The position numbers and the translations under genes were made by a program. Under the pieces are notes generated by a model. That model was given only the letters and a program-made list of their open reading frames with translations. It searched no databases and had not been told where the DNA came from. 62,851 nucleotides of DNA, taken from Catajapyx aquilonaris. Lineage: Eukaryota. Location: contig KZ538548.1 in NCBI GenBank assembly GCA_000934665.2, forward strand, positions 1-62,851, given 5' to 3'. Positions 18,601 to 61,063 of the stretch are shown one piece after another (positions within the stretch are counted from its first letter, which is position 1; the number at the start of each line of letters is the position of its first letter).

Positions 18601-19533
18601 TGCCAGAACAAATTCGACCCCCAAATACCCCCCGGATTTTCTAGGGGTATTTTTACCGGATTTTGGACTTGACAAGATGAGGTCATTCTATAGATGTAGC
18701 GGTGACAATCAGTTCAAGCGTGATTCGAGTATACTTTTTCTCATTCAAATAGGACAACAATGTTTCCTGTCATCAAAAAGTACAATTCATTTTTTTTTTG
18801 AAAATGTGTTTAGGAAGCGTGTTTCTAATTCCGGGTTGATAATAATTTTGAAGCAGCGGTGCATTCCCCCGTTGCAAATGCTGCTCCCCCATTCCATTAA
18901 TAATGCTTAATGACCAAAAAAACGTGTTCACCCAGACCACATCAGCAGTTATTGGATTTTTTGCTTAATCCTATGGGGATTTCAGCTCGGTGAAATACAG
19001 GGGCTCTATTGACATCTCTCAATAACACAAATCGCGAACTATAGCTTTTTGTGCATCAAAAAGAAGCGGATTGTATGACATCAGTACAGAGTGAGTCACA
19101 ACAGCTAATGGTACCCACTCTATGACAGGAAACTAGGCAATCTAAAGACAAATGGCAAAAGTCAGGTGGAAAGGCAAACAGCCCAGGAAGGTTTGGGAAG
19201 AGGAAGTGTGTCTTATGGCTAGTGTCAATAAGGGTCTTGAAAGATAACTAGACGTTGATGGGGTACCCGGATCACGTCCACTTGACGCACGACTTAACCG
19301 ATAGAGTCGGCAAAGAAGAAAAGGCGGCCGGAAGACGTCTTCCGAAACGCCTTCCCGAGACACCCTCGAATAAAGTCTCCAAAGTTCGATCGTGGGATGC
19401 ATTTTCACCTGGGTCATGCCTTCTGCACTGACAAATCCGGCGAATATTTCACCCCAGACTGTACACTATTTGGGTACCATCACCTTTACAAATTGGATCG
19501 TGCACACTGCTTGTAAAATTATTTCCAACGCTA

Positions 19534-19721
19534 CACTCTTAACCATTTACCTTCTCTAGAGAGGGTAAGAAAGTGGCAATTTTTTTACCTTACATTGTAG
19601 GGTAAATATTCTTGGGTAAATTGATTCAAAGGTAAATTTTGCATGCATTACCTTAGAAAATAGAGGGTAAAAAAGAGGCCCCCCTTTTACCCTCTCTAGA
19701 GAAGGTAAATGGTTAAGAGTG
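19534..19721. mobile_element. MITE family A, internally deleted copy (188 bp)
   Basis: ta|cactcttaaccatttacc…ggtaaatggttaagagtg|ta; most of the right arm is missing. Confidence 0.9.
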
Positions 19722-20293
19722 TACTCAGCGCAGGGTTATTATTGGCGAGAAAATTGTTTTAATAAGGAAAGCTTGCCCCTTTTGTTGTACTGTACAGTAG
19801 TTGTAATATCCATGCTGTTTGTACCACATATATATTTTGCTTTGTGGTACACTAATTTAGGAGTTTCTCTCTGCAGACCATGCATCGCTGCAACATATGT
19901 TCACATAAGCAAAAGTTTGTGTACTGCAACCCAAACATGGCATTTACCAGCCAGAATCCAGTGAAATTTTTTTTGTGTGTGCAAATAACATGTGCGTTAT
20001 TTCCAAGCCTGGGACCAAGTATTCAAGGTTGAGGGGAAGTCATTGGTGATCAATAGGTTTCCAGCTTCTTTTGGTGGGATGTTTGCTTCGTTCTGAAACC
20101 ATATTCCCATAGGCTTTAATATTTCTCTTTTGCTGTCGTTTCTTATTCGCTCATCCGAAAATTTCCATTTTGGTTGGTCCTTCTGGGTTTTTTTAAAAAA
20201 GTTTGAAACAATTGAAAGACGCCGATTGGTGTGTTACAATATGTGCAAAAATGGGTTGAAAATATTTGCAACATTGCTTATTATGGATATCAA

Positions 20294-20326
20294 ACTAATG
20301 TCAATTTTTCCTCCTTTCAGGTGAGT
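20294..20326 (+). promoter_or_regulatory. Candidate recursive splice site (ratchet point, zero-nt exon)
   Basis: actaat branch motif, tttttcctcctttcag acceptor ending at 20320, immediately followed by consensus donor gtgagt. Same strand as the Ig exon, inside the inferred long intron. Confidence 0.7.
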
Positions 20327-20760
20327 TACAGTGATTACACAAGCGGTGTTACTGGTGTGGTAAGTTGTTCAGTAATGTGTTTACATCATCTGAATGTTGA
20401 GCATCTCATTTTTTTTAAATATTTACCTCCAAGAAACTTCCTTGGGGGCTTCTAATTTTATCGTTTACAGATTCATCCTAATTAAAACTTTGCTATCACT
20501 CCAGGCTGTACTCGTTTTCCTAATAAACTTCGGTAATTGCAAAATATTAATTTACGAACTTTTGTCAGAAACCTTTTGTAAATAAGTTGATATGGAAATG
20601 AGATGCAGAAATTCTGACGACACTTTTTAATATTTCAACACTTCGAATTATATACACACAAGGCCAGGTCACTTCTCTAGAAATGCCCAGCCGAATGCTT
20701 CAAAGTGGAATAATTATGTCACGGGGGCGAAAAGTCCGGATCCCCTTGTGCATATACTGA

Positions 20761-21167
20761 CAAGGGAAGGTCACGGGGTGATAATGAGGGATCTTGATGA
20801 AATTTAACATGCTAATACAGGACAATATATGATACCCAAAAATGAAATATTTCGTGCGGAGGCCCATATTTGCAAAAGTTATGACGTCTTAAAGTTCCAA
20901 AAAATAAACAATTTCATTCGTAATGGGATTACATTAGCGACCACATATAATGACATTGAAGTGTGTAATCAGTTTCTACACTTTTTCTCATCGGAAAAAA
21001 GTCCTACAGAACGGCTCTGTCCGTTTTTTGGAACTTTAAGACGTCATAACTTTTTCAAATATGGGCCTCCGCACGAAATATTCCATTTTTGGGTATCATA
21101 TATTGTCATGTAATAGCATGTTAAATTTCATCAAGATCCGTCATTATCAACCCGTGACCTTCCCTTG
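20761..21167. mobile_element. Tc4/Tc5-like MITE, ~145-bp TIRs, TGA TSD
   Basis: c-tga|caagggaaggtcacggg … cccgtgaccttcccttg|tga-g. The empty site would be CTGAG (CTNAG target), and CAAGGGAAG termini recall nematode Tc5. Confidence 0.88.
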
Positions 21168-21873
21168 TGAGGATTGTGATTATTATAAATTTAATTTTTT
21201 TGCCAACTCAGGTACTTATTGGCTCATAGCCACTTAATAAAAATAGCAGTTGGAAGAGATTCTTTCTTTAAAATATGCTCCTTTCTGAAAGATTACATCT
21301 CATCCTTTTAAGACCCATATCTCATGGAACTGGAGGGAATAAGTGGTCAGAATTTTCATACTTCACGCCAATTATCCGCCATGAAAAGGGCTCTTCTTCG
21401 TGGAGGAATGGGATTCGTAAAACCTGCCGGGGACATTTCTAGTGGATTTAGATGGTAATTAAGATAGTAACCTTCCCCTTTCCCAAAAACTCGCTTCCAG
21501 CCAGTCGATGCCTCCGAGCTAGAAATGTTTCATTGATTGCCGCTTCAAATGAATTTCCATCTCTATCCTAGCCCCTTTTTTTCCTATATTTTCTCCCCCC
21601 CCCCACCCCCACCCCCAAAAAAGAAGGTAGTCAATATAGTGGTGCCAAAATCCAATAAACCCTCAAGTTGTTTTCGATGTAAGCCTTTTGGCGAATAGAT
21701 TTGGGCAGGAATTTCGCGCCATGAAATTGCCGTTTGTATACTTTGCTGAAGTGGACCCATTGGTATTGTTGACCTATAGAAACTATGATCGTTTCTTATT
21801 TTAACTGATTGCTTAACATTAACCCATGGCTGAATGATTTTTCTCTCTCATAAAATTGTCTTATAGAGCGGAT

Positions 21874-22438
21874 CTGTCCGTCCGTCCGTCTGTGGACAGG
21901 TATTAGGACCTATAGCAACAAAGCGACAAACGGTTTTCGAATTCGGTTTTAGTAGTCCATAAATGGGTTGGGCTGTGCGATATTTCGATACATCGACTGT
22001 CGATAACGATATTTTCCTAATGTCGAAGTTGCGATATCCGACATTTGGCATGTGCAATGTATCGAATTTCGCGATTTTTCGATATTTTCGATATATCGAC
22101 TTCGATTCGATATTTTCGATATCGGTGTTTCGATATATCGACTTCGATTCGATATTTTCGATGTGGGTGTTTCTATTTTCGATATATCGACTTCGATTCG
22201 ACATTTTCAATATCGGTGATTCGATATATCGACTTCGATTCGATATATTCGATGTAGGTGATTCGATATATCGACTTCGATTCGATATATTCGATGTAGG
22301 TGTTTCTATTTTCGATATATCGACTTCGATTCGATATTCTTTAGTATCGAAAGTCGATATGCAATTTCGGATATCGCACAGCCCTATAAAAATGGGTTTC
22401 ATGGTCAACTTCTGGTGCCTGTCCACTTCCGGATTTCC
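21874..22438 (+). mobile_element. GTCC/GTCT-microsatellite-bearing repeat family E (Helitron/Helentron-like), split by family C
   Basis: Blocks ctgtccgtc…gaca, gttttcg.attc and ggtcaacttc.ggtg…ccacttccgg are shared with 62725-62841. Ends are not resolved. Confidence 0.55.
21968..22386. mobile_element. hAT-like non-autonomous element family C with internal TCGA-rich tandem repeats
   Basis: TIR t(a/t)gggctgtgcgatat…atatcgcacagcccta; approximate TSD taaatggg / taaaaatggg; second copy at 47741. Confidence 0.88.
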
Positions 22439-24801
22439 GGAGTCACTCTTATCCGCTAAGGTCAAGTCTACAGGTGGGTTCTTTGGCAACGTCGTTGTTG
22501 TCCAATTTGAATTTACTTGCCAATGAGAAAAAAGTCGACTCGAATCCACTTGCCAATCTTGTTTTAATTATTTTTATAACCAAATTAACTAACACGATTT
22601 TTTTAAAAAAAATCTGTGTCCTGCATATACGACATCCGGATTTAGCTTAGTAACACACTGTATGTCACCTATTACGTCAGCATAATCCTGTCCTGAAACT
22701 TTTTAAAGTAGGTGGAAGCGGGATTACGAAAAATGGATGGAAAACGTCTGTATCTCCAGAATTCTACACACATCCTCGACTTAATACAGGAGTGGCGCAT
22801 TGGGATTGGGAGATGTGAGGGGCTTTTGGAAAGGGGGGGAGGGAGGGTGTTGGTAAGGGGTGAAGGGGGGGGGGGGTCGGAAGATCCAATATCTATGGGC
22901 GCGAGGAGAATTTTTATTCCCGTAAGGAAAAGCTAGAAACTGTGCGCCGTCTGCTTCTCAAGTATATATGGACAAAAAATATATATAAACTACTTTTTTT
23001 TGGTAGTAGTGAATGTCTTTTACAGGGTGATACACACGATTTATGAACCGAGCGTTATTTTTGCGTACTGTACAGTGTACACAAAAGGCTAGCAATATTT
23101 CACCTTACACATTCTGGAGTCCGAAGATAGACGTCAGAGTTGCGCTTTTTTTGTTGAAATAAATTGTGTCCATATTTCTGACACTGCTCGAGGTAGGTGC
23201 CAAAAGTACGGCTCTCGTGTAGTAGACATATCGACCAGAGCAGGGGGCTGGAGGCATTTAAACAAAAGTTTTCACCGCTACACAGGGTGTTCCAACAACA
23301 CACGTTGATTATTTAGCTTCCTTTCAGTAATCATGTCACTAATTTGCTTCCAAAACGTCTCTCATATAATGAACCTGAAGTTACACAACTTGTAATCAAA
23401 ATTTGTCATAATTAAAGTTAATGCGAGTCGGATATAGTTCCAATCATGTATTTTTTTATAAAAAAAATCGAAGCTATACTTTTTTTGGCCCGCGCTGCCA
23501 CTAAGCTGCTTCATGAAAAAAACAGCTAAGCTTTTCTGTACAGCCCTGTACATGCAGGAAAGTTGGAAGTTTGCACTTGCACCGAGAAAACCCGAGAGTT
23601 GGGCTTCTCATGCATGAAGTGTATTCACATGGAGGTTGAGTGCCCTCATGTGGAGACCGCGGTGGCCAGTAAACCGCAGACTATTCATAGTCCTGGCGAT
23701 TAAACGCAGCGTGTGCTGCACATAGGGCGGGCTACCTATTTGCATGTCATGAAACTTGTTTTTAAAAAATGCAGGTTTCAGAATCTCGGGCAAAGTTGCC
23801 TTCAAGGAAAATCCAGTAAAGTTTGCGACGTTTTTGCAGAAAGTCAGTGACGGCTTGGGGACATCAAAAGAATCTGAGGATATAGACGGAATCTGTAGAT
23901 ACAGTGTATATATCCTCCTGGGTGAAGGTATCAGAAGCTAGGAATTTTGTTTGTGGAAAGAAGCGGAGGAGATAAGGATTGAAATATCTGGCCCGAGTTT
24001 GTGTGCTTTCAAGGAAACCCGTTCCTGTATTGGACATTGAATATAGTATGGCCCACGCTAATGCAAATCCAATACAAATTTCAAATTTAGTGAGCGTTTT
24101 TTTTTTTTGGGGGGGGGGGGGGNGGCCTTCCCTGCACAAAAGCCGTCAAATATTTGGGCATGCTTATGTCCGAAGCCAACGACATTTTATGTCATAATAT
24201 CACGGCCATAAAACCGACACTGGAATCTAGTTGAGACATGACAGTGGCATGACTAGTTTGATTAGGTAATTCAGCCAGAAAAGGACAGTAAAAATATATA
24301 CAGGGTAGTAAACACATGAACTTGTCGTTTAACTTTCGATATGTAGCTTCTAGGATAGACATATAGCTTTCCTATGACTTTCCATAGTTGAAAAGGGTGA
24401 CTTCAAAGGAAATGGAATACACGAGAGTATATGTCAAAATGAAAGAGCAAAGTACTGATGCTACTGCCGTCAAAACCACTTCAACCAGTCTAGAGTGATA
24501 GTCTATAGTTCCTTTCATGCTGCTTGTGGGTAGGGATTCCACTCTCTATATTCAACTGCACAATAGTGGTGTATGTCAAGGGGGAAATGCTGTCGGAGTA
24601 CAGTACGTGGGTTGTAATCACGAACATTTTGCCGGGTCCAGGTCAGGGAGAGATAAGTTTACACTGCACGTATTTTTGTACAGAGAGCCCACAACAGGTG
24701 TGTGGAATTTCTAGGTAGTCTATAGAGTTGCCAACCATTATAGGGAGGTTAATTGACATTGATCGATTCGACTGTAGACACAATTATTGGGGGCCTTGAT
24801 A

Positions 24802-29915: not shown

Positions 29916-31007
29916 CAGGTGCTGCTGTTCGACCAATATTTACATATGTTGTACATCATAATCATTTGTTGACACCACCATCATACAGCACATATATGTG
30001 AACCCAATCACTGTACACTTACATACATCTCTTCATTCCAGTGCAACTGACCCATGGCAGTGGTAAGTAGCCTATGTACACTTGTCAGAGGCATGACACA
30101 ACTGGCACTGACGCCAACAATGATATACTGTAGACGTTGAACATTTGGTACCCCCCAATTATGTAGACCCGAACACCTGTGCATAGAAGCACTCTGACGG
30201 TGTATGTTTTGGAAAACAATGGCATGTTAAAAAAGACAGGGCATGTGTAATGAAGGCATGTCGGAATGTGAAGGTAAGGCATGTCGGAATGTGTCAATTG
30301 CATTGAGCTAATATGTATATCCAAAACGGAAGTCGGACCTTACCTTTCTCACGAAAACCGCACAGGTGCTCCTTGAAACGTGGAGTCCCGCAAGGGGTAT
30401 GTTTAACCGTTGAACTTGGCAATCTTTCAGCAGAATCTTCAAGATGCGAGTATCGGAACTGCAGGGCGACACGCTCTTTTTACTCTTTCTACCCCATATA
30501 TTTTTTTTGCACAGTTTTCTTTATGTCCTCGTCCGTGAGAGTCTGCCTCGGTAGGGAACCACAGATGGTGCTAATGACACCCAAGGCAGGTCGATACATT
30601 GTCACGACATATATTCAAAACAGTGATTTCCCTGCAAAAGATGCGCTACTCACTCTATGTTTTTTAAAAATCAAAACAAGGTTGGAAAATTGGAATGGGA
30701 CCGGTTTTACTACCGGGTTGTTCAATTACAAAACGTTGGTCCGTATTGTCCATGTTTTCGGTGGGAATGTTGCTGTTGGTGAATGTCGGAAAATGCAATC
30801 ACACGTACTGCTCGAGGGAGTGGACGGAAAAAAAAGGTAATGAATGTGCCGGTGGAATGGAAGGGAGTGTAAGTTGGACTAGTTGCAGTTGGGCGATAGA
30901 ATATGCTGGGTGTGGTTACACAACTGGCTTGTGGTTGAGTTTCACTGGACTAGGGGGACATGGTGGTACTGCCAGTAAATGTCATGTCGATTTAATTTTG
31001 AGCAGGT

Positions 31008-42523: not shown

Positions 42524-42660
42524 CTAGTAAGGGTGAAAGTCGCATGCATGCCGTGCACTAAACCCCCCTGACTCAGTGCCGGACATGCATGCGACTTTCA
42601 CCCTTATACTCTTAACCATTTACCTTCTCTAGAGAGGGTAAATGGTTAAGAGTGTATTAG
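42524..42660. mobile_element. MITE family B, copy 2 (interrupted by mini family A)
   Basis: Same TIRs as 39532-39628. Confidence 0.85.
42607..42654. mobile_element. MITE family A, 48-bp mini copy nested in the right TIR of family B
   Basis: ta|tactcttaaccatttaccttctctagagagggtaaatggttaagagtg|ta interrupts ccctta-ctag of family B. Confidence 0.88.
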
Positions 42661-42816: not shown

Positions 42817-42888
42817 CTACATGTTAGATAATATTCGGGTGTGAATCAGCAGAGATTTCTGGGTTAGGGTTTTTAGTAAGAAACTCAC

Positions 42889-43059
42889 GAGAAGTTTGAG
42901 TGGTGATGTTAGGAACTTCCGAACAGTCGCACTCGACGCATTTCTTAAGGTACCCGTCGTTCTGTCTGGAGCACGAACATCTGGTGCATTTCAATGAGAC
43001 CAAGTTCATGCAATATTCGGATTTGTGGCAGTTCGCTGCCGTTGCAACTTGAAGTGAAC
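42889..43059 (-). CDS. Candidate nested gene, exon 2 (8-Cys module, TNFR/Grindelwald-like spacing)
   Basis: Acceptor tttttag|, donor |gtgagt, 171 nt, phase 1-1. (G)SLQVATAANCHKSEYCMNLVSLKCTRCSCSRQNDGYLKKCVECDCSEVPNITTQTS. Confidence 0.5.
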
Positions 43060-43348
43060 CTAAAAATTGACACCAAAATTGACGTTGACGTTTTAGCTGG
43101 GTCGTTTATCGTCAGAGAGTCGCAGCTGAGAATAAACTAGATTTATGATTGCTTTTTTTTGTCACAAACCAGGTGGCAAAGTGTCGCCTATAAATTGTGG
43201 AGCCATATTAAATTTTGATCCACACTTGTTCTAAAAACCTCTTAAGGGTATTGCAATTAATAATTAATAAAATAACAGTCGCAAACTATACAGCAGATAT
43301 TTTCTGCACAACTGTTTCGACATGTAGGGTCATCAGTCAAGTACTCAC

Positions 43349-43460
43349 CTGTAGGACATATACCGTTGGTGTAACTTGTGACAGGTACAGTCACAATGCC
43401 AGAGTCGGCCACTGTCGCAATTAGAGTCGCAGTCAAGCACAGGAACATACACGCTTCCAT
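43349..43460 (-). CDS. Candidate nested gene, exon 1 (signal peptide)
   Basis: ATG at 43460; MEACMFLCLTATLIATVADSGIVTVPVTSYTNGICPT has a hydrophobic N-terminus; strong donor CAG|GTGAGT, phase 1. Confidence 0.5.
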
Positions 43461-45042
43461 TCTGTCCTTCTTAAAAACCAATTTCAGTGAGATTAGCTTT
43501 TAAATTTAAAAACGTGGTGTTGCACCGTACTTACTTTCTGATGTGGTCTGGCAGCTTATTCTCACGAGGGATGGAAGAACTCTGGCCAGTTCATTCAAAT
43601 ATGTGCATATATACCTTGGTTAAGATGTACACAACATGTGTGCATCTCCTTGATAAGTGGCAGCTGGGATTTGACATGCAAATGATATGGCCAGCGTGCA
43701 ATTTACCAACGCAATATTGAAGCTTTCTCATGCAAACTGGACCACAAAATGACGTAGTACTGGATAGTAATGACCTTATAGTGCAGCGTACGTGCATGAT
43801 ACATAGCATGTAAGTAAACAACCTTTTGCGTCATTTTAAGGTCAACATCTATGACGTCAAGGCCTTATGCTGAAACGCAACTGTTTTCCAGTCACGTGTA
43901 GTCATCTCTCATACTTTGGGAAAGAATTTTCTCATTACATCCTGGAAATTGCGAACGCTCGACCAGCAATTTTTACAGGCGCTACAAGCATTTGTGTCAA
44001 CTTCACACTGAAGCAGTACTTGATATTTCAAAGGAAAAATTTACATTTAGTGAATATGCGAACAATTTACTGTACAGTACATTGACAGCCATAACCACCG
44101 GTATGGCCTATAAACAACGCATATTCCCTCATAACAGATGTTGGGCCAGCTATTAAAACAAATTGGACCAAAATTACTGGGATTAATATATACAATAATG
44201 ATAACCTCATTATTAATATTAATAACGCACACAAAGCCCCCCCCCCCCGTTTAATTCTGGCAAATTAACCGCTTTTATAACCGCCAGTTTAAACGGATTT
44301 GCACAATTATCCTAGATAACAAGACGCAACTACCTTGGAGTAATGGTCCAGGGGAAGTAATAACACTAATAATGAAAACAAGGGGTACCCAGAGTAGAAT
44401 ACCGAATACCATGTCCCATTGGTTAAAAGCAGAATGAACCTCTAGTATTTTTTTCCCAGCCAAATGGCGTCGCGGGCGCCAAAGTTTTGAGGCCAAATGT
44501 CTTCATTAAAAGGGCAATGAATTTTAATCAGGATGCAAATCGACTCGGCGGCAATTAACATTCCAGGTGAGACCCTAGGAAGATTTGAACAATGGAGGCT
44601 CCCTGGGCGATCATTTTGGGACCTCCCCCGCCCCTTCTCGAAAACTTGTGCCCCCTCTTTCAATCTATGTACTGTAACTGTACTAAATACATACGTGAAC
44701 ATTACACAAAAGAGGAAGAGAAAGTTTGTCACGCTTCATTCAATTTGAACAAGTTGAGGCTAGGAATCTAATCCTTTTCCCCCTTAATTACTCCCAGTAG
44801 GGCCATCATATTGAGTTCCGGATCATTAGGGAATGTATAAGTGCGGAAGTGATATTAAGGGGAGGTTTCTAGGGAAAAAAAAGAGTTTTTTTTCCAAGAG
44901 CTGAAGTTGGATGTGAATGATTTTAGAAGGGAGTTGTTGAACCAAAGATGCTCTGCCTTACAGTATTATTCTTCAGGGAACGATGAATCAATGTTGTTGG
45001 CATGGTGAAGATTTTCATTGCTTTTTGAAAATATTATTTTAA

Positions 45043-45539
45043 AGGGACACTTCACTCAAAATGCAAGTTGGGCTCTAAAAATCGGGCAAAAAATCCTGAT
45101 TCCGAAGGTGCAATCGGTTTTTTTCTACGCGGAACAGAAAAGCCAGGACGAGGCGTTAAAGACTCAGAATTTGCGTCGTCTGCTAATGAGCTGCCCCGCC
45201 AGCCCAGTCCGCCACCACCGTGAGCGCCACCACCGGGCACTAGGCGAAAGTGATTTAGGGCTGAAAGTCGGGTCGGGTCAAGAGGTGGCGGGATGAACCT
45301 GTGGGACGGACCAAAGATGGCGCTGACCATGGCGTGGATCAAGATGGCGCAAGATTATCCCAATTTCTGCCCAGTCCCGGGGGAGGCGCTGCTGTTTTGC
45401 GGCAGATGCGAATTGCCTAACTTTGACGGCTCGCCCTGGCCTTACCATTCGTCTCTCAGAAAAACTGCTTATAGACTCGGAATCAGGATTTTTTGCCCGA
45501 TTTTTAGAGCCCAACTTGCATTTTGAGTGGAGTGTCTCT
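45043..45539. mobile_element. Kolobok-like MITE (TTAA TSD, AGG termini)
   Basis: ttaa|agggacacttcactcaaaatgcaagttg … caacttgcattttgagtggagtgtctct|ttaa; ~65-bp near-perfect TIR. Confidence 0.88.
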
Positions 45540-45612
45540 TTAAAGGCATAATATACTGGTTTTAATTATTTAGAAACTTACCCTGAAAGAACACTGTACA
45601 ATGGACATTAAA

Positions 45613-45839
45613 CTGCTAGCGACATTTTCCGAGGCGGCAGACGTGCAAATTGAAGTGCGAGCCGTACGAGTAAGAAATTGTAGTCATTGGGTGACGTCAC
45701 TGGTTGGGGGACAAGCCGTTTCTCCATTGCCCCCCAGCCGGTGACGTCACTCAAGGCCTACCTCTTCTTACTAGCACGGTTATCACTTCAATTTGCACTT
45801 CTGCCTCATCAGAAATGACGCGAATAGTGTCCAACACTG
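45613..45839. mobile_element. Imperfect-palindrome element family D, copy 1
   Basis: Inverted copy of 47591-48355 once the family C insert is removed; two TGACGTCA sites. Confidence 0.8.
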
Positions 45840-47590
45840 TACATTTTAAAGCAATACGCGTACGTATATGTGTGCAAGGTAGCACTGGATAATTTCATAG
45901 TACAAACAACCTTCACGTGTGCGGAGTGTAACCTTGACCTCATAGAGCTATACTATTTTCATACCAATATCTCAATCTCTGGAGACATAATAACGATGTC
46001 TGCGAGTATAAAGGTCAGTAGTAACAAATCGTTCTGTAATACCNNNNNNNNNNNNCCCCCCCCCCCCCAGTGATTTTTTTTTTATTTCCCCTGTTCTGAC
46101 CTAGGATATAAAACTTCATCAAATTGTTTGGATTCGGACACGTGATTACACGCAAGCATCGCAATTTCCGGTCTGGCCACCATGCATTTTTCACTGCTAT
46201 GTCGCAATACCCAGCACGCCATTGTTTATAGACTTCATCGGGGACTGCACGGCAATAATGTGTTGACCCATGTATAACTGCAGTGCGTCCTGATACACTA
46301 AAATGCATAAAAATATTCACTAGGTGCCCCAAGCGGGAGTGGGTGGGCCGATGGTGTCGCTAGGTTGGTGGAGGATCCGCGCGGTTCGGCGAACGGGAAA
46401 TGTGCATGATCTTATATTGGCCATAGCTCGAAAACGGAGGGGAAATTTGAAATTTTGAGGATTTTTCGCTTTGCAATTGTCGATGAGATCTTTCCAACGA
46501 GCCATCTCCCGACCCTCTACGAAGTGATTTTCTATCATATATCCTACACATCCCCCTCCACTGTTAGGGGGTTTATATGTACTGGATTCCTACACTAAGG
46601 CCTACATAAAATTAGTTTCAATGGTGCATAATTTTCTGGTTTATATGAATATAATATATGCTTTTTATGCACTTTAAATTTTGAGCAAAATTCACTACCC
46701 TTATCGTCATCCAGGCCATTTCCCACGTGATTGACACATATTTTAAAATCTTTCCTCCCAATCGAAATATCTGTCACCCCATGGCACCAGTATGTATGGG
46801 CCAGATTTATCCAAAGGGGGCATCAGGTGAAGGGGATAAAGAGACTCTACGAAGTTCAATATGGAAGGTGATCCCCTGTATGATGGCGTGAGAAGGAAGC
46901 GCACTTTGTCACGACATGTTTCGTTGGCAAATCGCTGCCGACAAGGTCGTTTTGGGGAAAAAGAAGACCCCTCCCTTGAAGGCTTTAAAAAAACACTGGA
47001 GTAATCGGGGAGTGCCAAGAACAGAAGACTCCAAGCCTTCCCATTTTACGACCAGCTATTTTCTTCCTAGGACTAGACCTGGTTTTATTTCCAGCTCAGT
47101 TGCTGAATTAATGAGAGAAATGCGTAATCTTCTCGCTTAGTGTCCTCTCCGCCACGCATTCAATTACTTGAATTAAGGCAGGAGCGTGCCGGAGCCATTA
47201 CCAGGCTTTATTAGCACCAAGGTGGGTTAAATATTTCCTATGACCTCCCCTGGTAATAACGATGATAACGGTCGGCTTAAGTCGGTATTAATTTGAGCAA
47301 GAATAGGTAGACCCCCCAATTTTTTTCGTGACACGTTTTCATGTTCGTGTGCAACCCACCCTGAAAATTATCCTATCGTGTCAAAAATGCTGGAGCTGAC
47401 AACTTCCTATACCCTCTTAGAAATGGCCCCCTAAATGGGTGTGGAAAGTTTGCCAAAAAAGAGAGAAAAACACAGGGTATGCCAACATAAAATTTTTGCA
47501 TAGATCCGGTTGCAATTCTAGGAAACATTCCGGTTGGAAAATAGCCAGAAAAGTTTGTTATATTGCTGATGTTTGTCCGAACTGGTAGTA

Positions 47591-48355
47591 CAGTGTTGGA
47601 CACGACAATTTCTGATGCGGCAGAAGTACAAATCAAAGCTGTGAGCCGTGCGAGTAAGAAGAGGTAGGCCTTGAGTGACGTCACGGGCTGGGGGGCAATG
47701 AAGGAAAGGTTTGTCCCCAGCCAGTGACGTCACCCAAGGGTAGGGCTGTGCGATATTTCGATACATCTACTGTCGATATGATATTTTCCTAATATCGAAG
47801 TAGCGATGTCCGACCCTTGGCATGTTCGATGTCGGCCTATCGAATATCGCGATTTTTCGATGTCGGTTCGATGTCGGTTTTCGATAATTTTTCGATGTCG
47901 GTTCGATGTCGGTTTTCGATAATTTTTCGATATCGGTTCGATGTCGGTTTTAGGTTTTTTCGATGTCGGTTTTCGATATTTTTCACTATTTTTCGATGTC
48001 GGTTTTTCGATTTTCGATAATTTTTCGATATCGGTTCTATGTCGGTTTTAGGTTTTTTCGATGTCGGTTTTCGATATTTTTCGATGTCGGTTTTTGTCGA
48101 TTTTCGATATATTGACTTCGATTCGATATTTTCGATGTCGGTTTTCCGATTTTCGATATATCGACTTCGATTCGATATTTTCGATGTCGGTTTTTCGATT
48201 TTCGATATATCGACTTCGATTCGATATTTTTAAGTATCGAAAGTCGATATGTAATTTCGGATATCGCACAGCCCTACCAAGGGCTACCATTTCTTACTCG
48301 CACGGCTCACAGCTTCGATTTGCACGTCTGCCGTACTAGAAAATGTCGCTAGCAG
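47591..48355. mobile_element. Family D, copy 2 (host of family C), TA-flanked
   Basis: ta|cagtgttggacac…gtcgctagcag|ta; the two halves rejoin collinearly with copy 1. Confidence 0.8.
47741..48276. mobile_element. hAT-like family C, copy 2, nested in family D
   Basis: ccaaggg|tagggctgtgcgatat…atatcgcacagcccta|ccaaggg (7-bp visible TSD). Confidence 0.9.
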
Positions 48356-49179
48356 TATGACCACCCTGTGTCACCTTCATGTCCTTGGAAACCCTCAAAT
48401 TTCCGCCAAATGTCGTGCAAATTCCTAAGGGTTGTGACATGACGATGGAAACAAAACGCTACAAAATGCAAGTCGGCGACTGGCGAATTAAAGCGGAAGG
48501 GTTACGACATGCAAACGTGATTAATTAGCGTCTGGGGAAAAAAAAGAGCAAAAAGCGAAGGAAGATAGGTCACACTGGCAGATTTTTACTTCTTGTTGTT
48601 GTTGAATCTCCGCTTTCGAAAATAGCTACTTTGCATTTTTAATGTAGAGAATCCTGGAGGCTGGGTTAATTTCTGAAAATTGGACAGCTCTGAGAGGTGA
48701 AGGCGGTAGCTAATTGGATTAAAAACTGTGGAGAGTTTACCTTAAGATAGTTTTTTTTTGGCCAGTGGAAGTAAAATAAGCTGAAGTATTTCAGAATATT
48801 TAGACCACGGCTTTGAATTGTTTATAAATACAGTGTGGGTCAACATGATACTTTTAGTTACTTTTAGTAGTTAAAAATAGCTGCTGCGCCCAAATTGTAT
48901 GTGAGATGACCAAATATGGCTTTCAAATGTCTCTAAGCAAAGTGTCAGCAGACATTGGCGCAGATTATGAATTAATGACACTATGTCATTTACTCCGCAA
49001 ACACTGCTAGGTCGCCATTAAATCCTATCAACCGACGCTAAGTCAGCAACTGTGTATGTCAAGTTGGAACTGGCGTGTTTACTCGAGTAATTGCGATAAG
49101 TGAAATGTATGCAATTACTGCACGCAGACAATGCGTTACATATTTCATGCGAAGAAAAGGGGCTTACAATACAAGGTCA

Positions 49180-49241
49180 TGTGATCGTGTGATCGTGTGA
49201 TCGTGTGATCGTGTGATCGTGTGATCGTGTGATCGTGTGAT
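49180..49241. repeat. 8-bp repeat (tgtgatcg)n
   Basis: Direct observation. Confidence 0.95.
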
Positions 49242-51197
49242 ATTAAATATATCGATATTTTTATTTATTTTAAAAAATGGTGGATAATCTATTTTGGTGT
49301 TAGATTTAGGGTTAGATGAAGGTATAGATATAACTATGTTACCTCAAATAATAAACTCACTATATGTATAGAGAAGGCCAAAAAAGCTTTCTAAATATTT
49401 CAAGCTTACAGCAACTATTTTTCTTTGCAAAAAGACGGTTCATTAATTTAGGGTGTCAAAAAAGGAAAGGTAAGGCCTGGTCCTAATGAAAAGAGGGCTA
49501 GGTTTGTATTGTTTCGTAGAGGTGCCCAAATTGATCCTGGAGGCACCTCCTCTCACTTCCGACCTTTCCCACTGGTTGAACCACACAGCCTAATGAAACA
49601 AAAGCATCTTTCTCTGGCTGCATTATTAATCAAAGGAGGTAGGGAAAAGCCACATTCCCATTTTNNNNNNNNNNNNNNCCCCCCCCCCCCCCCAAAAAAA
49701 AAGAGTCACTGCCAAGCCGCCATTTTTTGGCCTCGCCCAAACTGTGATTGCGTCTTATCCTATATAGGGAAAGTTGCAAAAATTAAAGTTTTACGAAGTT
49801 AACAGTCTGCCCAAGTTGACGGTCTAGAGGAGGGGAATAGGGAAGAGTTGATGGATTAGTCACTCCTGGTTCGATTAACACATCAACTTTGTCCCTCATT
49901 AAATAAGAAGGCACATTATTAATAGGCATTCTCTAGAGAAGGTAAGTGAGCATATAAATGTACACAGTCATCAAGTATGGATGATGTTAATTACGGTGTA
50001 TGAATTGGTGGGAATGACCATTCACGCATAATTGCCCAATTTGATTGCTATGTGTGCGTTGGTAATGACTAATTAGACATATTCCATCCCGTAATTTTGC
50101 AATAACTGCTTTCCAATAATTACACCATTGCAACAATACCGATCCCACCGATTTTTTTATTTCGCCACATATAATCAGATTGGTCCATTCCAACAACATC
50201 GACTCAACGACTATCGTGTGAACCCACCAAAATTAATTTCCACCCCCCATTTTTGAACAATGCGAATCCGCCCCCTCAACCAATCCGGAATATGAAATTG
50301 AAATAAATCTCACCAAACTTCGCCATCTCGAATAATAAGGCAACTAAGGCGGAAATTTGTGGAGTCTGTCTGTCCATCCAGACATGTCTTTAATCACAGA
50401 AGAAATATCACCCCCCCCCCCCCCAACCAGTTAGAAGGTAGGAATTAGATGAGAAAAATATTTTTCCGGGATACATTTGGCCGAATTTCATTTGGTCGAA
50501 CCTTTTTTTATTTTTGACGCTAGTGTGGATTTTGACGAGGGTATGGTATCGATCGGGATTCGATTCGCCTAATTGCAATCTCCCCTTGGTTTCTATACCC
50601 TGGTTGGGCACACAAAAGAACGGAGCAAATGGAAAAAGCTGGAGCGCTCGAGAGCTGCCGATGCAAAGGGGTTGGGCTTATCCGATTTCTCGGCACATTT
50701 TGCTGAAAATTAAGGCACGCGATTTTATGTGCCGATTTTCACACACATGAGAGCGTGCCCGTTGGGGGGGGGGAGATATGTCAAAAGCATGTAAATTTTT
50801 TGTGCATAGGTTACGTTTTTTTGGTGTGTCTGTAGTTGCATATATTTATTTATATTTCATACCCCAGCACATATGGTTGCAGGGTCGTAGCACTTAGTAT
50901 AAATATTTAATGACAGTTCTGCTGGTTATATCCTTAGCCCTTAAAAGCATAGGTAAGAGTGCTTTAGTGCGCAAACAGAGTTTGAGCTCATTGACAGCGT
51001 AATTAAAAAGGAAGCACCACTCAGTGCAACAGTGTAGAGTAATGATATAGTTAATGCTATGTTATGTACACAGCTGCATTACAGGTTGGGTTTGTAAAGA
51101 GCGCTGTTATAAATTAATATCACCGGTAAGCACAGTTATGAAACCTACAACTTTGCACTATGATGATTACGTGACCGTGACGGACCGTGACATTTAA

Positions 51198-51667
51198 AGG
51201 GACAAGCCACTCAAAATACAAGTTGATCTGTAAAAATCAGGCAAAAAATCCTGATTCCGGTGATACCATCCGTTTATCTCTGAGACGAACGGTAATGTCA
51301 GAGGAAGGGACGAAAGTCGGAAAAAATTCGAGGTCTGTTCGAGAGTGGCGCCGCCTGGCCACCTGGCCAAGTTAGGCGACGTTGGATAGAGCTCCGCCCT
51401 TCCCAACGGGCACTAGGGGAAGTTGGCTTCGGACACAACCAGATCCCCACGGATCCCCATACCCGCAGGCAACTTATCCAAGTCGCCGTTGGGAAGGGCC
51501 AGGTGGCCAGGCGGCGCCACTCTCGAACAGACCTCGAATTTTTTCCGACTTTCGTCCCTTCCTCTGACATTACCGTTCGTCTCAGAGATAAACGGATGGT
51601 ATCACCGGAATCAGGATTTTTTGCCTGATTTTTACAGATCAACTTGTATTTTGAGTGGAGTGTCCCT
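51198..51667. mobile_element. Kolobok-like MITE, related subfamily, ~165-bp TIR
   Basis: ttaa|agggacaagccactcaaaatacaagttg … gagtgtccct|ttttaa; long near-perfect palindrome with termini similar to 45043-45539. Confidence 0.9.
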
Positions 51668-52539
51668 TTTTAAAAAATCTAAACCGCTTATCCTCGTCCA
51701 AATCGCAGCTTTTTTGGAAGCCTTAAGGCGAATACTCGTAACTTTTCTGAACCGGTGATTTCCCTGGGACATTAAAGTGGCAATTTGGCCTCCGATGGAA
51801 GGTGAGTTAGAAAAGGGATGGGGAGGGTTAAGAGCGACACTTCCTCCGCCCTCCGCCCCCTATTTTCTTTAAGCGCTTCTATTTTTCTTAAGATTCAATC
51901 ATGGCTTTTTTTTAAAGCGATATATGTTTTTAAGAGCTTCGATGTAACAAAGCTCCAATCTAATCCATATAGCAAAGGAGGGGGAGTGGCAGCAAACTCT
52001 ATTTTCGAACAGGGTGAGTGGGGGAAGGGGGCAAAAACTTCCGATTCCCAAGTCGCCATATTTCAAGCGGGTTGCCTTATCGCTTCTGCTGTTTCCCAGC
52101 GAATTTCCAGAGGGCCGGGGTCTCCCTTGCCAAATTTAAGCGGGCGTTAATGCAGCCCAGACCCATGATTTATTAGAGGGCGACCTAGTAAAGTTAGGGC
52201 CACTGTTATTTTTTTTTTAAAGGTTCAAAAGCATCGATTGGTTTAGGTCATCTTCAGCTACTAATTTGCTTGAGTCAGCTTGCTGGAAAATCGCAAGGTA
52301 AGCTGATCAATAGGATTTGTACCATACAATTACGTAACTGTGGAGACCAATGTGTCGATTTTTTTTATCATGGCTGGTTCATTGACGTGCTGTTATCATG
52401 CACGCAGCTTATTCAGCACATTTGGACGATTTTTTTTGATATTAATCGCTGGAAAAGTCACAACGAGCCAACTAATATTTTGCTAATTAGCCCACCCCCA
52501 AAAAGTGGAGTGGTGGTAATAAATAATATCCCAATTCGA

Positions 52540-52878
52540 CTAGTGCATACGGCCATTCGCGGCCATTTTTCAATAACCAGCGACCCGCGGCGAAGGGGGG
52601 GACAGGTAGGGTGGGTGGGGAAGGTGAAAAGGTCGGGCAGGGGACGATGACGGCGGGAGAGACGGAAAAGAGCGACCTTCTCCCAAGGAGGTCAGCAGGC
52701 AACTGGACGTGTTCCACCCCCACTGCGCATGCTCGGAACGGGGGCCAATCGGAGGCGTCTTGAATACGTCGCAGTAACAATGGACGGGGGCCAATAGGAA
52801 GAGGTGGCGGCAACAATAAGGGGGCGGACCAATCAGAGGGCTCGGTCAAGCAACGCAATGATTTTAAAACTATATATA
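52540..52878 (-). mobile_element. Helitron H1-related subfamily with a different 3' half
   Basis: Minus-strand 5' part matches H1 (aaaatc…cgagccctctgattggtccgcc); ends with hairpin atggccgcgaatggccgt then CTAG|T. Confidence 0.8.
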
Positions 52879-54044
52879 ATTATAAATCGTAACAATGGAG
52901 TTAGGAGGACACCAATGGGTAGTTAACAGCTGAAATAAATATGGTTACACCTTGGACAGTCTGGTAAAAATGGCTGTCACTACGTTTTAATGTCACATTA
53001 GAGTTGGGCAAGTAAAAATAACCATTGGACAATTTGGTTTGCGACTCATTGTATCGACCTTCTTTTTTTATTGAAGGGACTAGGAGGCGATATCGTGAGA
53101 ATGACGTAACCATGGCCTCAAAGATGGAGGCGTAATTGGTCGGGGTTCCGCCAACTTGGCGCCCTTTTGTCAATGTCAGGTGGATGTCGTATCTGGAAAT
53201 AGCTTCATTCGGTTTTGCTTCTTTTCTTCTGATTTTTTTGTTGTTGGGAGCCTCCCTCCTTTGGGGCTTTTGGGACTCCACGGTTGATGACTGGCGGCCT
53301 GAAGTTATGGCCTCTTCTTGAAAAGATGGCTTTCACCATAATGTCTTTAGTTCTTGCTCCTCTTTCGGTCAGGAGATGAATCTTATCGGAGTGTGACTGG
53401 TTGGATCACAATGGTGGGCATTTTATTTGGCATATATTGTACTGGAAGTGTGTAGACAGTTTTTGACCCTTGAGGTCATTGACCTGCAGCTAATAACACT
53501 GCTGCTTAACAGTAGTTGCTATATTATATGAGGGGAAAAGCGACCAATCAAAAATGTATCGATTAATCGATAGCAAATTCGATACAATGAAATATTTCAA
53601 GTTTGAGATACCGAAATATCAGACCTAGCTTTAAGTATCGATTTCCAGTAAAAATTATTGTCAAGCCGGGACTAGGCTGGTTTTAGGAGAGATAATCGAT
53701 TTTAGTAACTTCCTTTATTTTTGCACATTTTAAAAGCAAAAGGTAGGTCAAGAAAATCTTCATTAACCCAATGTTACGGTACACCTTGTGCAGTTGAATC
53801 ATTGAAACTCCATTCCCCCTCGGGAGCTTTTTGGCCCCATATATTTTTAGGTTAGCGTCCATTTTTAATCCAGGATCGTTAATCTGCACTTTTCGCTTGT
53901 AATTTAATCATGTTACAGTCCTAACAAGCCGTGTTGTTGGTTACACCCTGGTTTTACTTTGTTAGTTTCCTAACTCAAAAAACTGTAATGGAAAACATTT
54001 GAGTAAAAATTGACTCAAATTGGATTCATTTTCACTCAAAAATA

Positions 54045-54376
54045 TCATTATATAAATAAAGCCGTTTGTGAGTCGGTCTGTCTGTCTCGCTATCTGCCTC
54101 TCTGTCTGTCCTGTCCGCCTGCCAACCGTCATTTGCGTGCCATCTGTGCTCCACCCCCAGGCCGGGAGAGGATGGAGGTGTTGGGGGTTGACTACAGATG
54201 GCAGGCAAATGACGGTTGCCGTTATACAGGCTGGAGAGGTTGAAGGTGTTGGAGTAGCAGGTCCACAGATGGCATTGGTGGCCGGACACACAGAAAGACA
54301 GACAGTTGACGGGGGTACTGGCAGGTGTTTTCCCTTCATTCATTTCTTCCCGGGCAACGCCGGGTGCCGCAGCTAG
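54045..54376 (+). mobile_element. Non-autonomous Helitron family H2
   Basis: A|TCattatata, (GTCT)n, internal inverted repeat, 3' hairpin cccgggcaacgccggg, CTAG|T. Confidence 0.9.
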
Positions 54377-55049
54377 TTCTTAGGACATAGCAAAAGACTA
54401 ACGACGCCGTGTGGACAAGGAACAAACATAGGTCCAGACAAAAGTAGTCGCATGTGTTCCCCACTTTGTGTCTCCAAAGTTTACTTTAATAATGGGATTC
54501 TAAAAGGACCCGAAGGAAAAAATGAGAGAATTTTCCTTTCTTATAGAAAGAAAACCCAAAAATGAAATTCATCCCTCTAAGGCATTTTTTTTCTCCATCT
54601 CCTTCTTGTTCTTCTGGGTGTCCAATTTCTTCTACCTTCCAAGGAGAGCAAATTAAATTCTTCCTCGGAACTACCAAAAACAAGTTCCTGTTCCGGAAAG
54701 GTTCTTATTTCCGGATAGGATATTGGTTGGAGCGGAAGTTGAGTTAGGAAACAAAATGGCGGGTGGTGCGATAGGTAGAAAATGATGGACGCCCAACTCT
54801 GGTCGCGGAAACATCAGCTGTTCTTTACGACGGCCATTTTCGAATGGGGACCACTAAAGCAAAGGGGGCTGGGGGCGGGGGGGATCGTCAATGGCGCCGT
54901 CTTTTTTCGGCCACAACCGATCTTCCAGGGGGTATTTTGCCAGTTTATCGACGGTTGGGAAGAGATTGGGGGTGGAAATACGGAGAGGCGACAATAATTT
55001 CCAAGTTGGTCCGAATTAATGGATAGAATTTTGATAAGTTTTGGGTCTA

Positions 55050-55337
55050 CACTCTTAACCATTTACCTTCTCTAGAGAGGGTAAGAAAGTGGCAATTATT
55101 TTTACCTTACATTGTAGGGTAAATATTCTTGGGGAAATTGATTCTAAGGTAAATTTTGCATGTATTACCTTAGAAAATAGAGGGTAAAAACGGGCCTCTT
55201 TTTACCCTCTATTTTCTAAGGTAATACATGCAAAATTTACCTTAGAATCTATTTACCCAAGAATATTTACCCTACAATGTAAGGTAAAAAGTGGCCACTT
55301 TCTTACCCTTTCTAGAAAAGGTAAATGGTTAAGAGTG
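55050..55337. mobile_element. MITE family A, full-length palindromic copy (288 bp, TA TSD; CACT termini, CMC/EnSpm-like or Tc1/mariner-mobilised)
   Basis: Near-perfect inverted repeat over almost its whole length, flanked by TA on both sides. Confidence 0.93.
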
Positions 55338-57055: not shown

Positions 57056-57358
57056 GGCCGAAGCAGTGGTATCGGAGGGGATATGGTATCCGACTGCTAA
57101 TCGGGAGGTCCTGGGTTCGAATCCCGGTGTCCGCCGACCCTGAGCGTGATTTTCTGTGGTTTCCCATTGTCTCACCAGGAAAATTCCGGGGTCGTGTCCG
57201 TAATTATAGGCCACAGCCGCTTCCTTCCGTCCCTATCCCATCCCCATATACGAGAAGTAAAAATGAAAGCAAGAGTTCCAGATAATAAAAAATATGGTGG
57301 TATCCCACCCCCCTAAGAGGGCCCATGGCTCTAGCACGGGGTACAAATTATTATTATT
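57056..57358 (+). mobile_element. tRNA-derived SINE with Nin/Deu-like central domain
   Basis: A-box-like tggtatcggagggg, B box GGTTCGAATCC (57114-57124), central ttttctgtggtttccc…aggccacagccgcttccttcc, (TTA)n tail, TSD attatcatttaaatt on both sides. Confidence 0.9.
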
Positions 57359-58308
57359 ATTATCATTTAAATTAATATTATTTATTTTTTATTTATTTAA
57401 TTTATTATTTAAATATATGAATTGTTTTAATACAATTCAACAATACAATAAATAAAATGAATAAATGAATAAATCATTCATTCATTTTATTTTATATTAT
57501 ATCGTTTACTTATTTTATGTGATATAATTTATTTATTGTTAATGTTATGTAATTTTTATAAGAAATGTAGGTGATTGCCGATATTTAAAATCAAATGTTC
57601 TCTAAAATATTACATGTTTCGGACCAAAGTTTCGGACGAAAATGTGTCGGTCGAAGTGCATCCGCAAATTATCGGGAATAAGTCATGTCCTAATTGGACG
57701 AGATTATTTCTGTCCCTATAGAGACGATAATAATTTTAAGCAGAACCACAGTCTGCCAAAGTTTGGCCCCCTTTTTAGGCNCCGGACAATGAAACAAACA
57801 TCGCGCCTCTATCTGTTGTTTATGGATTAAACTCTGGTCCCGACCAGAATTGGCCCTGCAACATTAATGGAGCCCTGCTTCCAACTGGGTCACACGGCGA
57901 GGTCAAGGTCACCCCCCACCATGACCTTGCACGTCCCCGCCCTCTCTGGAGACGCTTCGGCGAAGAAAAGGCGCATAATGAGACGGTTTGGAGTTATCCT
58001 AGTTAATCTGAGAAAACTGGGGGTCTCCATAGCGACCGAATGTTCCCGAGGGACTTTGGAAAAGGGGCTTATGGGAAAATGGGTTTGTGGGGAGAGGAGG
58101 GAAAGGAGGGAAAAGGGGATCAATGCAACCGGGGAGGATGGGTTGTCAAGGAGACTCCCCACCTTGTCACGTGGAAAAACCTTCGCTTAGTCAGCAAGTA
58201 ATCCTGCGTAAGACACACAGGCATCGTTCATCACATCTTGGCCTACATGTCATCTGGAGTACCGCATCCCTCACGTAGATGGCGGAACCCATTTTAGTAT
58301 ACCCCTAT

Positions 58309-60906: not shown

Positions 60907-61063
60907 CTTTGGCAACGTCAGACGAGTTGAAGATCACGTCAAATGAAGGCGTTGTGATCCGCTCGGTGAACGACTCGTACTTCGTCACATGTCACGCTCC
61001 AAACGCCGTCCGACTCATGTGGATACATCTTCCAAGTAATCAGATCACCGCTCAGAAAGGCAG
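60907..61063 (+). CDS. Internal coding exon: N-terminal half of first Ig domain of an NCAM/Fasciclin-2-like IgSF adhesion protein (resembles Drosophila fipi/CG15630)
   Basis: Branch-like GCTGAC, pyrimidine tract and acceptor (ttcctctcttattcgcag|), strong donor (cag|gtaaga). Open frame, phase 1 in and phase 2 out: xLATSDELKITSNEGVVIRSVNDSYFVTCHAPNAVRLMWIHLPSNQITAQKGR. It has the Ig B-strand Cys (FVTC), the C-strand Trp and an NDS sequon. Orthology is recalled from memory only. Confidence 0.85.

What the first reader, a model, noticed from the sequence alone, without database searches (positions are those of the whole stretch)
20294..20326. Recursive-splicing ratchet point inside an intron of more than 40 kb
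Seen: branch motif, long pyrimidine tract, CAG and then GTGAGT with no exon between; it is the only strong such junction I found on the + strand. It lies 40.6 kb upstream of the Ig exon with no other + strand exon evident. Knowledge: AG|GT ratchet points subdivide long introns in Drosophila developmental and neural genes. Inference: this intron is removed stepwise in a non-model arthropod.
Basis: partly seen in the sequence, partly recalled or inferred. Interest (0 to 1): 0.72.

Follow-up and report, generated by a model that had tools for sequence, protein, structure and literature searches.

The report
Candidate recursive splice site, unproven
A textbook-looking "splice in, then splice out again" signal lies 40.6 kb upstream of an expressed exon on the same strand, so a very long intron is probably removed in two steps as in fruit flies, but no RNA data show that the site is used.

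Summary
It has CTAAT with its branch A at -23, a 14-base pyrimidine run with TT at -5/-6, and CAG|GTGAGT at 20320|20321. This is the full fly-type ratchet-point layout. It is the only such site on either strand. The base motif is expected 0.038 times per shuffled window; with the second donor it appeared in 0 of 1000 shuffles.

The downstream exon (60907-61063) is real and spliced: it lies at positions 301-460 of a 2910-nt contig of run X1, with 0 mismatches. No tool confirmed its "Ig" label. The contig's first 300 nt were not placed in 42852-60904, which suggests an intron of at least 18 kb. Whether that intron reaches 20.3 kb is not shown.

Junction reads, saw-tooth coverage and conservation could not be tested. 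My probability that the site is used is about 0.5. If real, it is a new member of a known kind. This scan has already noted similar unproven candidates on other pieces of the same genome.

The parts
20295..20299 (+). CTAAT branch-point-like motif; putative branch A at 20298, which is -23 from the acceptor
   Evidence: Read directly. Mapped fly ratchet-point branch points lie mostly at -36 to -21 (Duff preprint). Branch use was not tested.
20305..20320 (+). Acceptor half of the ratchet point: a 14-nt unbroken pyrimidine run (20305-20318) ending in CAG, with TT at -5/-6
   Evidence: TT at -5/-6 is present in 196 of 197 fly ratchet points against 44% of all fly introns (Duff preprint).
20321..20326 (+). 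Donor half of the ratchet point: GTGAGT directly after the AG
   Evidence: It is the only YAG|GTRAGT on the + strand.
20321..20359 (+). 39-nt putative cryptic RS-exon; read after a phase-1 exon it gives a stop at the 4th codon
20360..20365 (+). Donor of the cryptic exon: GTG|GTAAGT
   Evidence: Predicted U1 pairing is weaker (-9.1 kcal/mol) than for the ratchet-point donor (-12.2), with the -3 base assumed.
60907..61063 (+). Expressed coding exon of 157 nt, entered in phase 1 and left in phase 2; the proposed final acceptor of the long intron. Family not identified.
   Evidence: Acceptor ctgttcctctcttattcgcag| and donor |gtaaga. Only one frame is open, with GC3 0.63. X1 contig record 6 (2910 nt) has its positions 301-460 on window 60905-61064 with 0 mismatches and continues on both sides.

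Best explanation
The site at 20320|20321 (+) is most likely a recursive splice site of the Drosophila type. It would lie in a very long intron of the + strand gene whose next known exon is 60907-61063. The proposed mechanism is inferred, not shown. As the polymerase passes 20.4 kb, the 39-nt cryptic exon 20321-20359 is recognised by exon definition: branch A at 20298, the pyrimidine tract and CAG on its left, GTAAGT at 20360 on its right. The upstream exon is then spliced to 20321, which removes the first part of the intron as a lariat. That ligation places the upstream exon, which ends in AG, in front of GTGAGT and so recreates a strong donor. This donor outcompetes the weaker cryptic-exon donor and is spliced to 60907, removing the cryptic exon and the remaining 40.6 kb. 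The mRNA keeps no trace of the site. If the cryptic exon were retained, it would introduce a stop codon four codons in.
For: 1. All sequence features that define fly ratchet points are present: AG|GTGAGT, a prominent pyrimidine tract, TT at -5/-6, and a branch-like A at -23 (criteria from the Duff preprint, read whole).
2. A short cryptic exon with its own donor follows the site. Joseph et al. 2021 (PMC8605326, passages) describe these exons as about 50 nt long and flanked by a downstream donor.
3. U1 duplex energies are -12.2 kcal/mol for the ratchet-point donor and -9.1 for the cryptic-exon donor. This matches the fly rule that the ratchet-point donor is usually the stronger.
4. Inclusion of the cryptic exon after a phase-1 exon gives a stop codon, like the generally out-of-frame fly cryptic exons.
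5. The motif is rare: 0.038 per shuffled window, and 0 of 1000 shuffles with the second donor; the empirical null is about 0.005 or less. It is the only such site on either strand.
6. The exon at 60907-61063 is on the same strand and is spliced exactly at the predicted sites in a 2910-nt contig, which has 300 nt more upstream. No piece or joint of that contig was listed in 42852-60904.
7. The two letters before the exon in the contig are AG, so the upstream exon ends in AG, as needed to rebuild a good donor.
8. No convincing start-codon or phase-1 exon was found between 20.3 and 60.9 kb.
9. In flies most introns over 40 kb hold recursive sites, and first introns are enriched for them (Pai 2018, PMC6110457, abstract and passages).
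Against: 1. No read, contig joint or lariat shows use of 20321. Transcription across 20.3 kb is not shown.
2. The upstream exon was not located, so the transcription start could lie between 20.4 and 42.8 kb.
3. The lower bound of 18 kb rests on the absence of listed pieces in an output whose piece table was cut (180 rows not shown).
4. A signal-peptide-like mini-exon candidate at 50910-50952 (MTVLLVISLALKSI, TAG|GTAAGA, phase 1, ends in AG) would shorten the last intron to 10 kb if real. No joint to it was listed.
5. Strand skews are ambiguous. The + strand has T>A by 2.3%, which fits a sense strand. It also has G>C by 5.5%, whereas fly introns have C>G on the coding strand (PMC5786239, passages).
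6. Donor-like and acceptor-like motifs are not depleted on the + strand: 24 against 17 GTRAGT, and 63 against 68 3'ss-like sites.
7. Multiple testing: at about 0.005 per window, a few chance full motifs are expected among the 533 windows of this genome read so far.
8. Conservation could not be examined.
9. The cryptic exon is 39 nt, a multiple of three, which is less typical than the out-of-frame lengths described for flies.
Confidence: 0.5

Rival explanations
1. Chance motif. The site lies upstream of the gene's transcription start, or in DNA that is not transcribed on the + strand, and is never seen by the spliceosome.
For: Transcription across 20.3 kb is not shown. Only an intron of at least 18 kb is suggested. 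The empirical null is 0.04-0.13 per strand for the base motif, and many windows were read. G>C skew on the + strand is opposite to that of fly sense strands. Splice-like motifs are not depleted on the + strand.
Against: The full layout (TT at -5/-6, branch A at -23, 14-nt tract, GTGAGT, second donor at +39) occurred in 0 of 1000 shuffles. Nothing comparable exists on the - strand. The site is co-oriented with the only proven exon in the window. No convincing first exon lies between it and that exon.
Confidence: 0.28
2. An ordinary or alternatively included 39-nt exon (20321-20359). It could be a 5'UTR exon, a poison cassette exon, or an exon of another + strand transcript that merely happens to begin with GTGAGT. 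At most it would be an 'expressed RS-exon' like Ubx m1/m2.
For: It has a good acceptor and a good donor (GTAAGT) 39 nt apart, and a length that is a multiple of three. One of its frames is open: VSYSDYTSGVTGV. Fewer than 50 expressed RS-exons are reported in flies (PMC8605326).
Against: In the frame required by the phase-1 exon at 60907 it carries a stop. The X1 contig has AG, not the TG that ends this exon, directly before the 60907 exon, so in that transcript the two are not joined directly. GTRAGT at the first six bases of an ordinary exon is itself a coincidence of about 1 in 1000 (frequencies). The ratchet-point donor pairs with U1 better than the exon's own donor does.
Confidence: 0.17
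3. A plain donor. An exon ends at 20320 and GTGAGT is simply its 5' splice site, with the pyrimidine tract lying inside that exon by chance. The 40.6-kb intron would then be removed in one step.
For: The X1 contig shows that the exon before 60907 ends in AG, as an exon ending at 20320 would.
Against: In the phase that 60907 needs, there is a TAA eight codons before 20320 and no ATG after it. The 60907 exon looks coding over its whole length: one open frame, and GC3 of 0.69 before its only in-frame ATG against a window GC of 0.42. This rival leaves the acceptor-like tract, the TT, the branch motif and the second donor at +39 unexplained.
Confidence: 0.03

Closest known systems
Drosophila intronic ratchet points with cryptic RS-exons. 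Sources: Duff et al. preprint 10.1101/006163, read whole; Joseph et al. 2021 PMC8605326, passages; Pai et al. 2018 PMC6110457, passages. Hatton 1998, Burnette 2005 and Joseph 2018 were seen only as cited in those papers.
   Same: Juxtaposed acceptor and donor (YnCAG|GTGAGT), TT at -5/-6, a branch A within -36 to -21, a short cryptic exon with a weaker downstream donor, and a stop on inclusion. The remaining segment of 40.6 kb falls within the fly range of 2.6-63.6 kb.
   Different: The organism is not Drosophila, and no junction, saw-tooth, lariat or conservation evidence exists. The cryptic exon is 39 nt and so frame-preserving in length. The fly consensus favours GTAAGT, whereas here the donor is GTGAGT. 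The host gene has no identifiable family.
Expressed RS-exons: Ubx microexons m1/m2 and vertebrate RS-exons (Sibley 2015, as cited in PMC8605326)
   Same: An exon that begins with a donor sequence, so that splicing to it rebuilds a 5' splice site. The outcome is set by competition between the two donors.
   Different: Those exons appear in mRNA, and Ubx m1 is ultraconserved. Here the only transcript evidence does not have the 39-nt exon directly in front of the 60907 exon, and in the required frame the exon carries a stop.
Predicted recursive site in the 230-kb intron of locust NPF1 (PMC8892266, passages)
   Same: A ratchet-point motif found by sequence in a long intron of a non-dipteran arthropod.
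   Different: The locust site has indirect wet-lab support (U2AF65 RNA immunoprecipitation). This one has none.

Membership tests
Drosophila-type zero-nucleotide ratchet point | [quoted passage not shown] | tested here: met
   CAG|GTGAGT at 20318-20326
Drosophila-type zero-nucleotide ratchet point | Prominent pyrimidine tract with TT at -5/-6 (196 of 197 fly sites) | tested here: met
   14-nt unbroken run at 20305-20318; -5 and -6 are both T. Criterion from the Duff preprint.
Drosophila-type zero-nucleotide ratchet point | Branch point, mostly A, 21-36 nt upstream of the acceptor | tested here: inconclusive
   CTAAT with an A at -23 is present. Actual branch use needs lariat reads.
Drosophila-type zero-nucleotide ratchet point | Cryptic RS-exon of about 50 nt with its own downstream donor | tested here: met
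   39 nt at 20321-20359, followed by GTAAGT. Criterion from PMC8605326.
Drosophila-type zero-nucleotide ratchet point | Regenerated ratchet-point donor stronger than the cryptic-exon donor | tested here: inconclusive
   U1 duplex energies of -12.2 against -9.1 kcal/mol. The -3 base of the real upstream exon is unknown, and no trained splice-site model was available.
Drosophila-type zero-nucleotide ratchet point | Lies in the sense orientation inside a long intron (fly range 11-133 kb) | tested here: inconclusive
   It is on the same strand as the expressed exon 40.6 kb downstream. An intron of at least 18 kb is suggested by the X1 contig. Reach to 20.3 kb is not shown.
Drosophila-type zero-nucleotide ratchet point | Exon-to-ratchet-point junction reads, saw-tooth coverage, recursive lariats | not testable with these tools
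Drosophila-type zero-nucleotide ratchet point | Sequence around the junction conserved in related species | not testable with these tools
   No genome of this or a related animal is held. An exact 22-mer scan of metagenome contigs gave 0 matches.
   Pfam gave no Ig family even at E up to 10. PDB sequences gave nothing below E 0.39. phmmer gave 4 weak hits to Sushi and FN3 repeat proteins, inflated by repeats. The Atlas gave no relevant hit. Only a Cys-x9-Trp spacing recalls an Ig B-C strand pair, and that resemblance comes from my own recall. A half-domain of 51 aa may simply be too short to score.

The most novel reading that the evidence does not exclude
Fly-type recursive splicing, with the same rules (TT at -5/-6, cryptic poison exon, donor competition), is a general arthropod way of handling giant introns. 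Here it would serve a gene whose exon has no detectable relatives in 1.84 billion protein representatives. That would mean ratchet points arise readily in long introns of lineage-restricted genes and are not only ancient, ultraconserved elements of developmental genes.
Probability: 0.3. Interest if true: 0.45.

Novelty: new member of a known kind. Interest (0 to 1): 0.3.

Why it matters
If the site is used, it would add a non-dipteran example of stepwise intron removal, with the complete fly-type signal set. Other agents' unchecked notes describe similar candidates in the same genome; together these would suggest that the recursive-splicing code (TT at -5/-6, cryptic exon, donor competition) is shared across arthropods with large introns. 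For annotation it matters in a practical way. The site marks the sense strand and the interior of a transcription unit in an otherwise featureless 60-kb stretch, and the 39-nt cryptic exon should not be annotated as coding. It does not change the understanding of the mechanism.

Tried and rejected
1. RNA evidence. The look-up of sequencing runs was run with the exon and its flanks (window 60860-61100, kind rna). No RNA holder was listed; one run, X1, of unrecorded kind, held 0.67 of 21 words. The ratchet point itself was therefore never laid, which leaves its use open. Parts of that stretch without cover are not used as evidence.
2. Own genome. None is held, so copy number of the motif region and genome-wide motif statistics could not be obtained.
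3. Protein families. 127 stop-to-stop frames of at least 82 aa, plus the exon, were scanned against Pfam. Nothing passed a curated cut-off, so no other gene or transposon protein was recognised in the window.
4. Exon identity. These searches all gave nothing usable: the search for homologous proteins with 'longer' (0 hits); phmmer against representatives (4 weak hits inflated by repeats); Pfam at E up to 10; PDB sequences; ESM Atlas (best score 0.88 to bacterial GCV_T fragments).
5. Search for the upstream coding exon. Scans for ATG plus a hydrophobic stretch plus a phase-1 donor gave only weak candidates. Candidate 30444-30534 is rejected because it ends in CC, whereas the contig shows AG before the exon. 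Candidate 50910-50952 is neither supported nor excluded.
6. Strand skews as a marker of the sense strand: ambiguous.
7. GC or CpG peaks as a promoter marker: uninformative.
8. Rfam and tRNA scans: only a tRNA-like element at 57077-57135.
9. Exact 22-mer across the junction in metagenome contigs: 0 matches.
10. Earlier notes by place (near), by sequence and by relatives: nothing.
11. Burnette 2005 (PMC1450422) is not held. Its motif matrix could not be used, and no MaxEnt-type scorer was available.

Full report
**Observation**

The stretch 20294-20326 on the + strand reads ACTAATGTCAATTTTTCCTCCTTTCAG|GTGAGT.
- CTAAT lies at 20295-20299, which puts its second A (20298) at -23 from the acceptor.
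- Positions 20305-20318 form an unbroken 14-nt pyrimidine run whose -5 and -6 positions are both T.
- AG is at 20319-20320, and GTGAGT follows directly at 20321-20326.
- Thirty-nine bases further on there is a second strong donor, GTG|GTAAGT at 20359|20360.

The 40.6-kb distance to the downstream exon is also correct: 60907 minus 20321 is 40,586.

**Is it more than chance?**

- Both strands together carry 16 AG|GTRAG sites. Only this one has a real pyrimidine tract (13 of 15 Y, a run of 14), and only this one has another GTRAGT within 150 nt.
- At a relaxed cut (YAG|GT with at least 11 of 15 Y) there are 6 sites on + and 4 on -. Only 20321 has a full donor and the TT.
- In 1000 dinucleotide shuffles, counting both strands, YAG|GTRAGT with at least 12 of 15 Y has a mean of 0.038 per window. 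With a second GTRAGT at +15 to +120 it appeared in 0 of 1000 shuffles.
- Shuffles destroy natural pyrimidine tracts, so I also built an empirical null. The window has 63 (+) and 68 (-) 3'ss-like sites. YAG is followed by GTRAGT in 1 of 1634 (+) and 3 of 1620 (-) cases. That gives 0.039 and 0.126 expected per strand, to be multiplied by 0.03-0.04 for the second donor.

For one window this is clearly unusual. Over the 533 windows of this genome read so far, a few chance cases would still be expected.

The site lies in sequence that is unique within the window, between two inverted-repeat elements at 19532-19723 and 20754-21174.

**Surroundings**

None of 127 frames of at least 82 aa matched a Pfam family above its cut-off. 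Rfam found only a tRNA-like element at 57077-57135.

It is entered in phase 1 and left in phase 2. Only one frame is open, and GC3 is 0.63 against a window GC of 0.42.

The exon is real. The one run that holds it (X1, kind not on record) has a 2910-nt contig whose positions 301-460 lie on 60905-61064 with no mismatch. The contig runs on for 300 nt before and 2450 nt after that piece, so it is a spliced transcript that uses exactly the predicted sites.

The two extra matching letters on the left show that the preceding exon ends in AG.

No other piece or joint of that contig was listed in 42852-62851. This suggests that the preceding exon lies more than 18 kb upstream. The piece table was cut, so this is an inference and not a proof.

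The Ig label itself found no support in Pfam, PDB sequences, phmmer or the Atlas.

**Where is the upstream exon?**

Scans for an ATG-initiated, phase-1 exon gave nothing convincing.
- Candidate 30444-30534 ends in CC and is excluded by the AG seen in the contig.
- Candidate 50910-50952 (MTVLLVISLALKSI, TAG|GTAAGA) looks like a signal peptide and ends in AG. However, a TATA-like string sits right against its ATG, and no joint to it was listed. Even if it is real, at least 235 nt of further upstream exon sequence remain unplaced.

**Rivals**

*A plain donor (an exon ending at 20320).* This fails on reading frame. In the required phase there is a TAA eight codons upstream and no ATG after it, while the 60907 exon looks coding throughout.

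*An ordinary 39-nt exon.* This is possible but less likely.
- In the required frame it carries a stop.
- It ends in TG, whereas the contig shows AG before the 60907 exon.
- A start with GTGAGT would itself be a coincidence of about 1 in 1000.

*A chance motif outside the transcription unit.* This remains the main rival, because nothing shows transcription across 20.3 kb. Strand skews do not settle it. The + strand has T>A by 2.3% (z 4.5) and G>C by 5.5% (z 8.9). Fly introns have T>A but C>G on the coding strand (PMC5786239, passages).

**Comparison with what is known**

Duff et al. (preprint 10.1101/006163, read whole) define fly ratchet points by these features:
- AG|GT with juxtaposed splice-site consensus sequences;
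- a prominent pyrimidine tract;
- TT at -5/-6 in 196 of 197 sites, against 44% of all introns;
- branch points mostly at -36 to -21;
- host introns of 11-133 kb, removed in segments of 2.6-63.6 kb;
- conservation across species;
- junction, saw-tooth and lariat evidence.

Joseph et al. 2021 (PMC8605326, passages) add a cryptic exon of about 50 nt with its own donor. That exon is usually out of frame, and the stronger ratchet-point donor outcompetes its donor.

Pai et al. 2018 (PMC6110457, abstract and passages) report recursive sites in most fly introns over 40 kb, with enrichment in first introns.

Every sequence-level feature is met here. U1 duplex energies (-12.2 against -9.1 kcal/mol, with the -3 base assumed) agree with the competition rule. 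The features that need RNA or related genomes could not be tested.

A predicted recursive site with indirect support already exists for a locust gene (PMC8892266, passages), and recursive splicing is known in vertebrates. Even if real, this is therefore a further member of a known kind.

This scan has already recorded the same kind of candidate, also without RNA proof, on other pieces of this genome: 63 notes mention the words, among them sites in dachsous-, Ptp99A-, NOS1AP- and CELF-like genes. I did not check those notes.

**Verdict**

- My probability that 20321 is used as a recursive splice site is about 0.5: about 0.28 for an unused chance motif, about 0.17 for an ordinary or expressed 39-nt exon, and about 0.03 for a plain donor.
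- Interest is modest.
- The cheapest decisive step is to place the first 300 nt of the X1 contig on the rest of the window. After that come total RNA-seq or RT-PCR for the exon-to-20321 junction.

Noticed in passing
window 61175-61714 (+), in the intron just after the expressed exon: A minisatellite of about 540 bp, with roughly 24 copies of a 20-nt unit (GCGATACTTTCCACGTGGTA), each carrying the palindromic E-box-like CCACGTGG. It could be a dense array of bHLH-type binding sites or simply a satellite.
   Followed up: no
window 57077-57135 (+) and 56859-57525: A tRNA-like element: Rfam tRNA at 33.8 bits, not called by ARAGORN. It lies in a bin with summed contig depth of 2139 in run X1, and many loose ends sit around it. 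It is probably a tRNA-derived SINE-like repeat that is abundant in that run.
   Followed up: partly
window 50910-50952 (+): A signal-peptide-like mini-ORF (MTVLLVISLALKSI) ending in phase 1 at TAG|GTAAGA. Joined to the 60907 exon it would read ...KSIALATSDE. A TATAAATA string lies directly before its ATG. No contig joint to it was listed.
   Followed up: partly
window 19532-19723, 55047-55342, 1-64, 42605-42656, 58309-58358: A short inverted-repeat (MITE-like) element is present in several copies at 87-100% identity. A separate 151-nt-arm, 95% complementary palindrome lies at 20754-21174.
   Followed up: no
window 22083-22338 and 47852-48230: Two arrays of a TTCGATAT-rich satellite with periods of 42/91/133 and 35/49/98. 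They account for the long repeat-derived frames at 21851-22567 and 47840-48229.
   Followed up: no
whole window: A steady strand asymmetry along the whole 62.8 kb: G>C by 5.5% (z 8.9) and T>A by 2.3% (z 4.5) on the + strand. The G>C direction is the vertebrate-type sense-strand pattern, not the fly-type one.
   Followed up: partly
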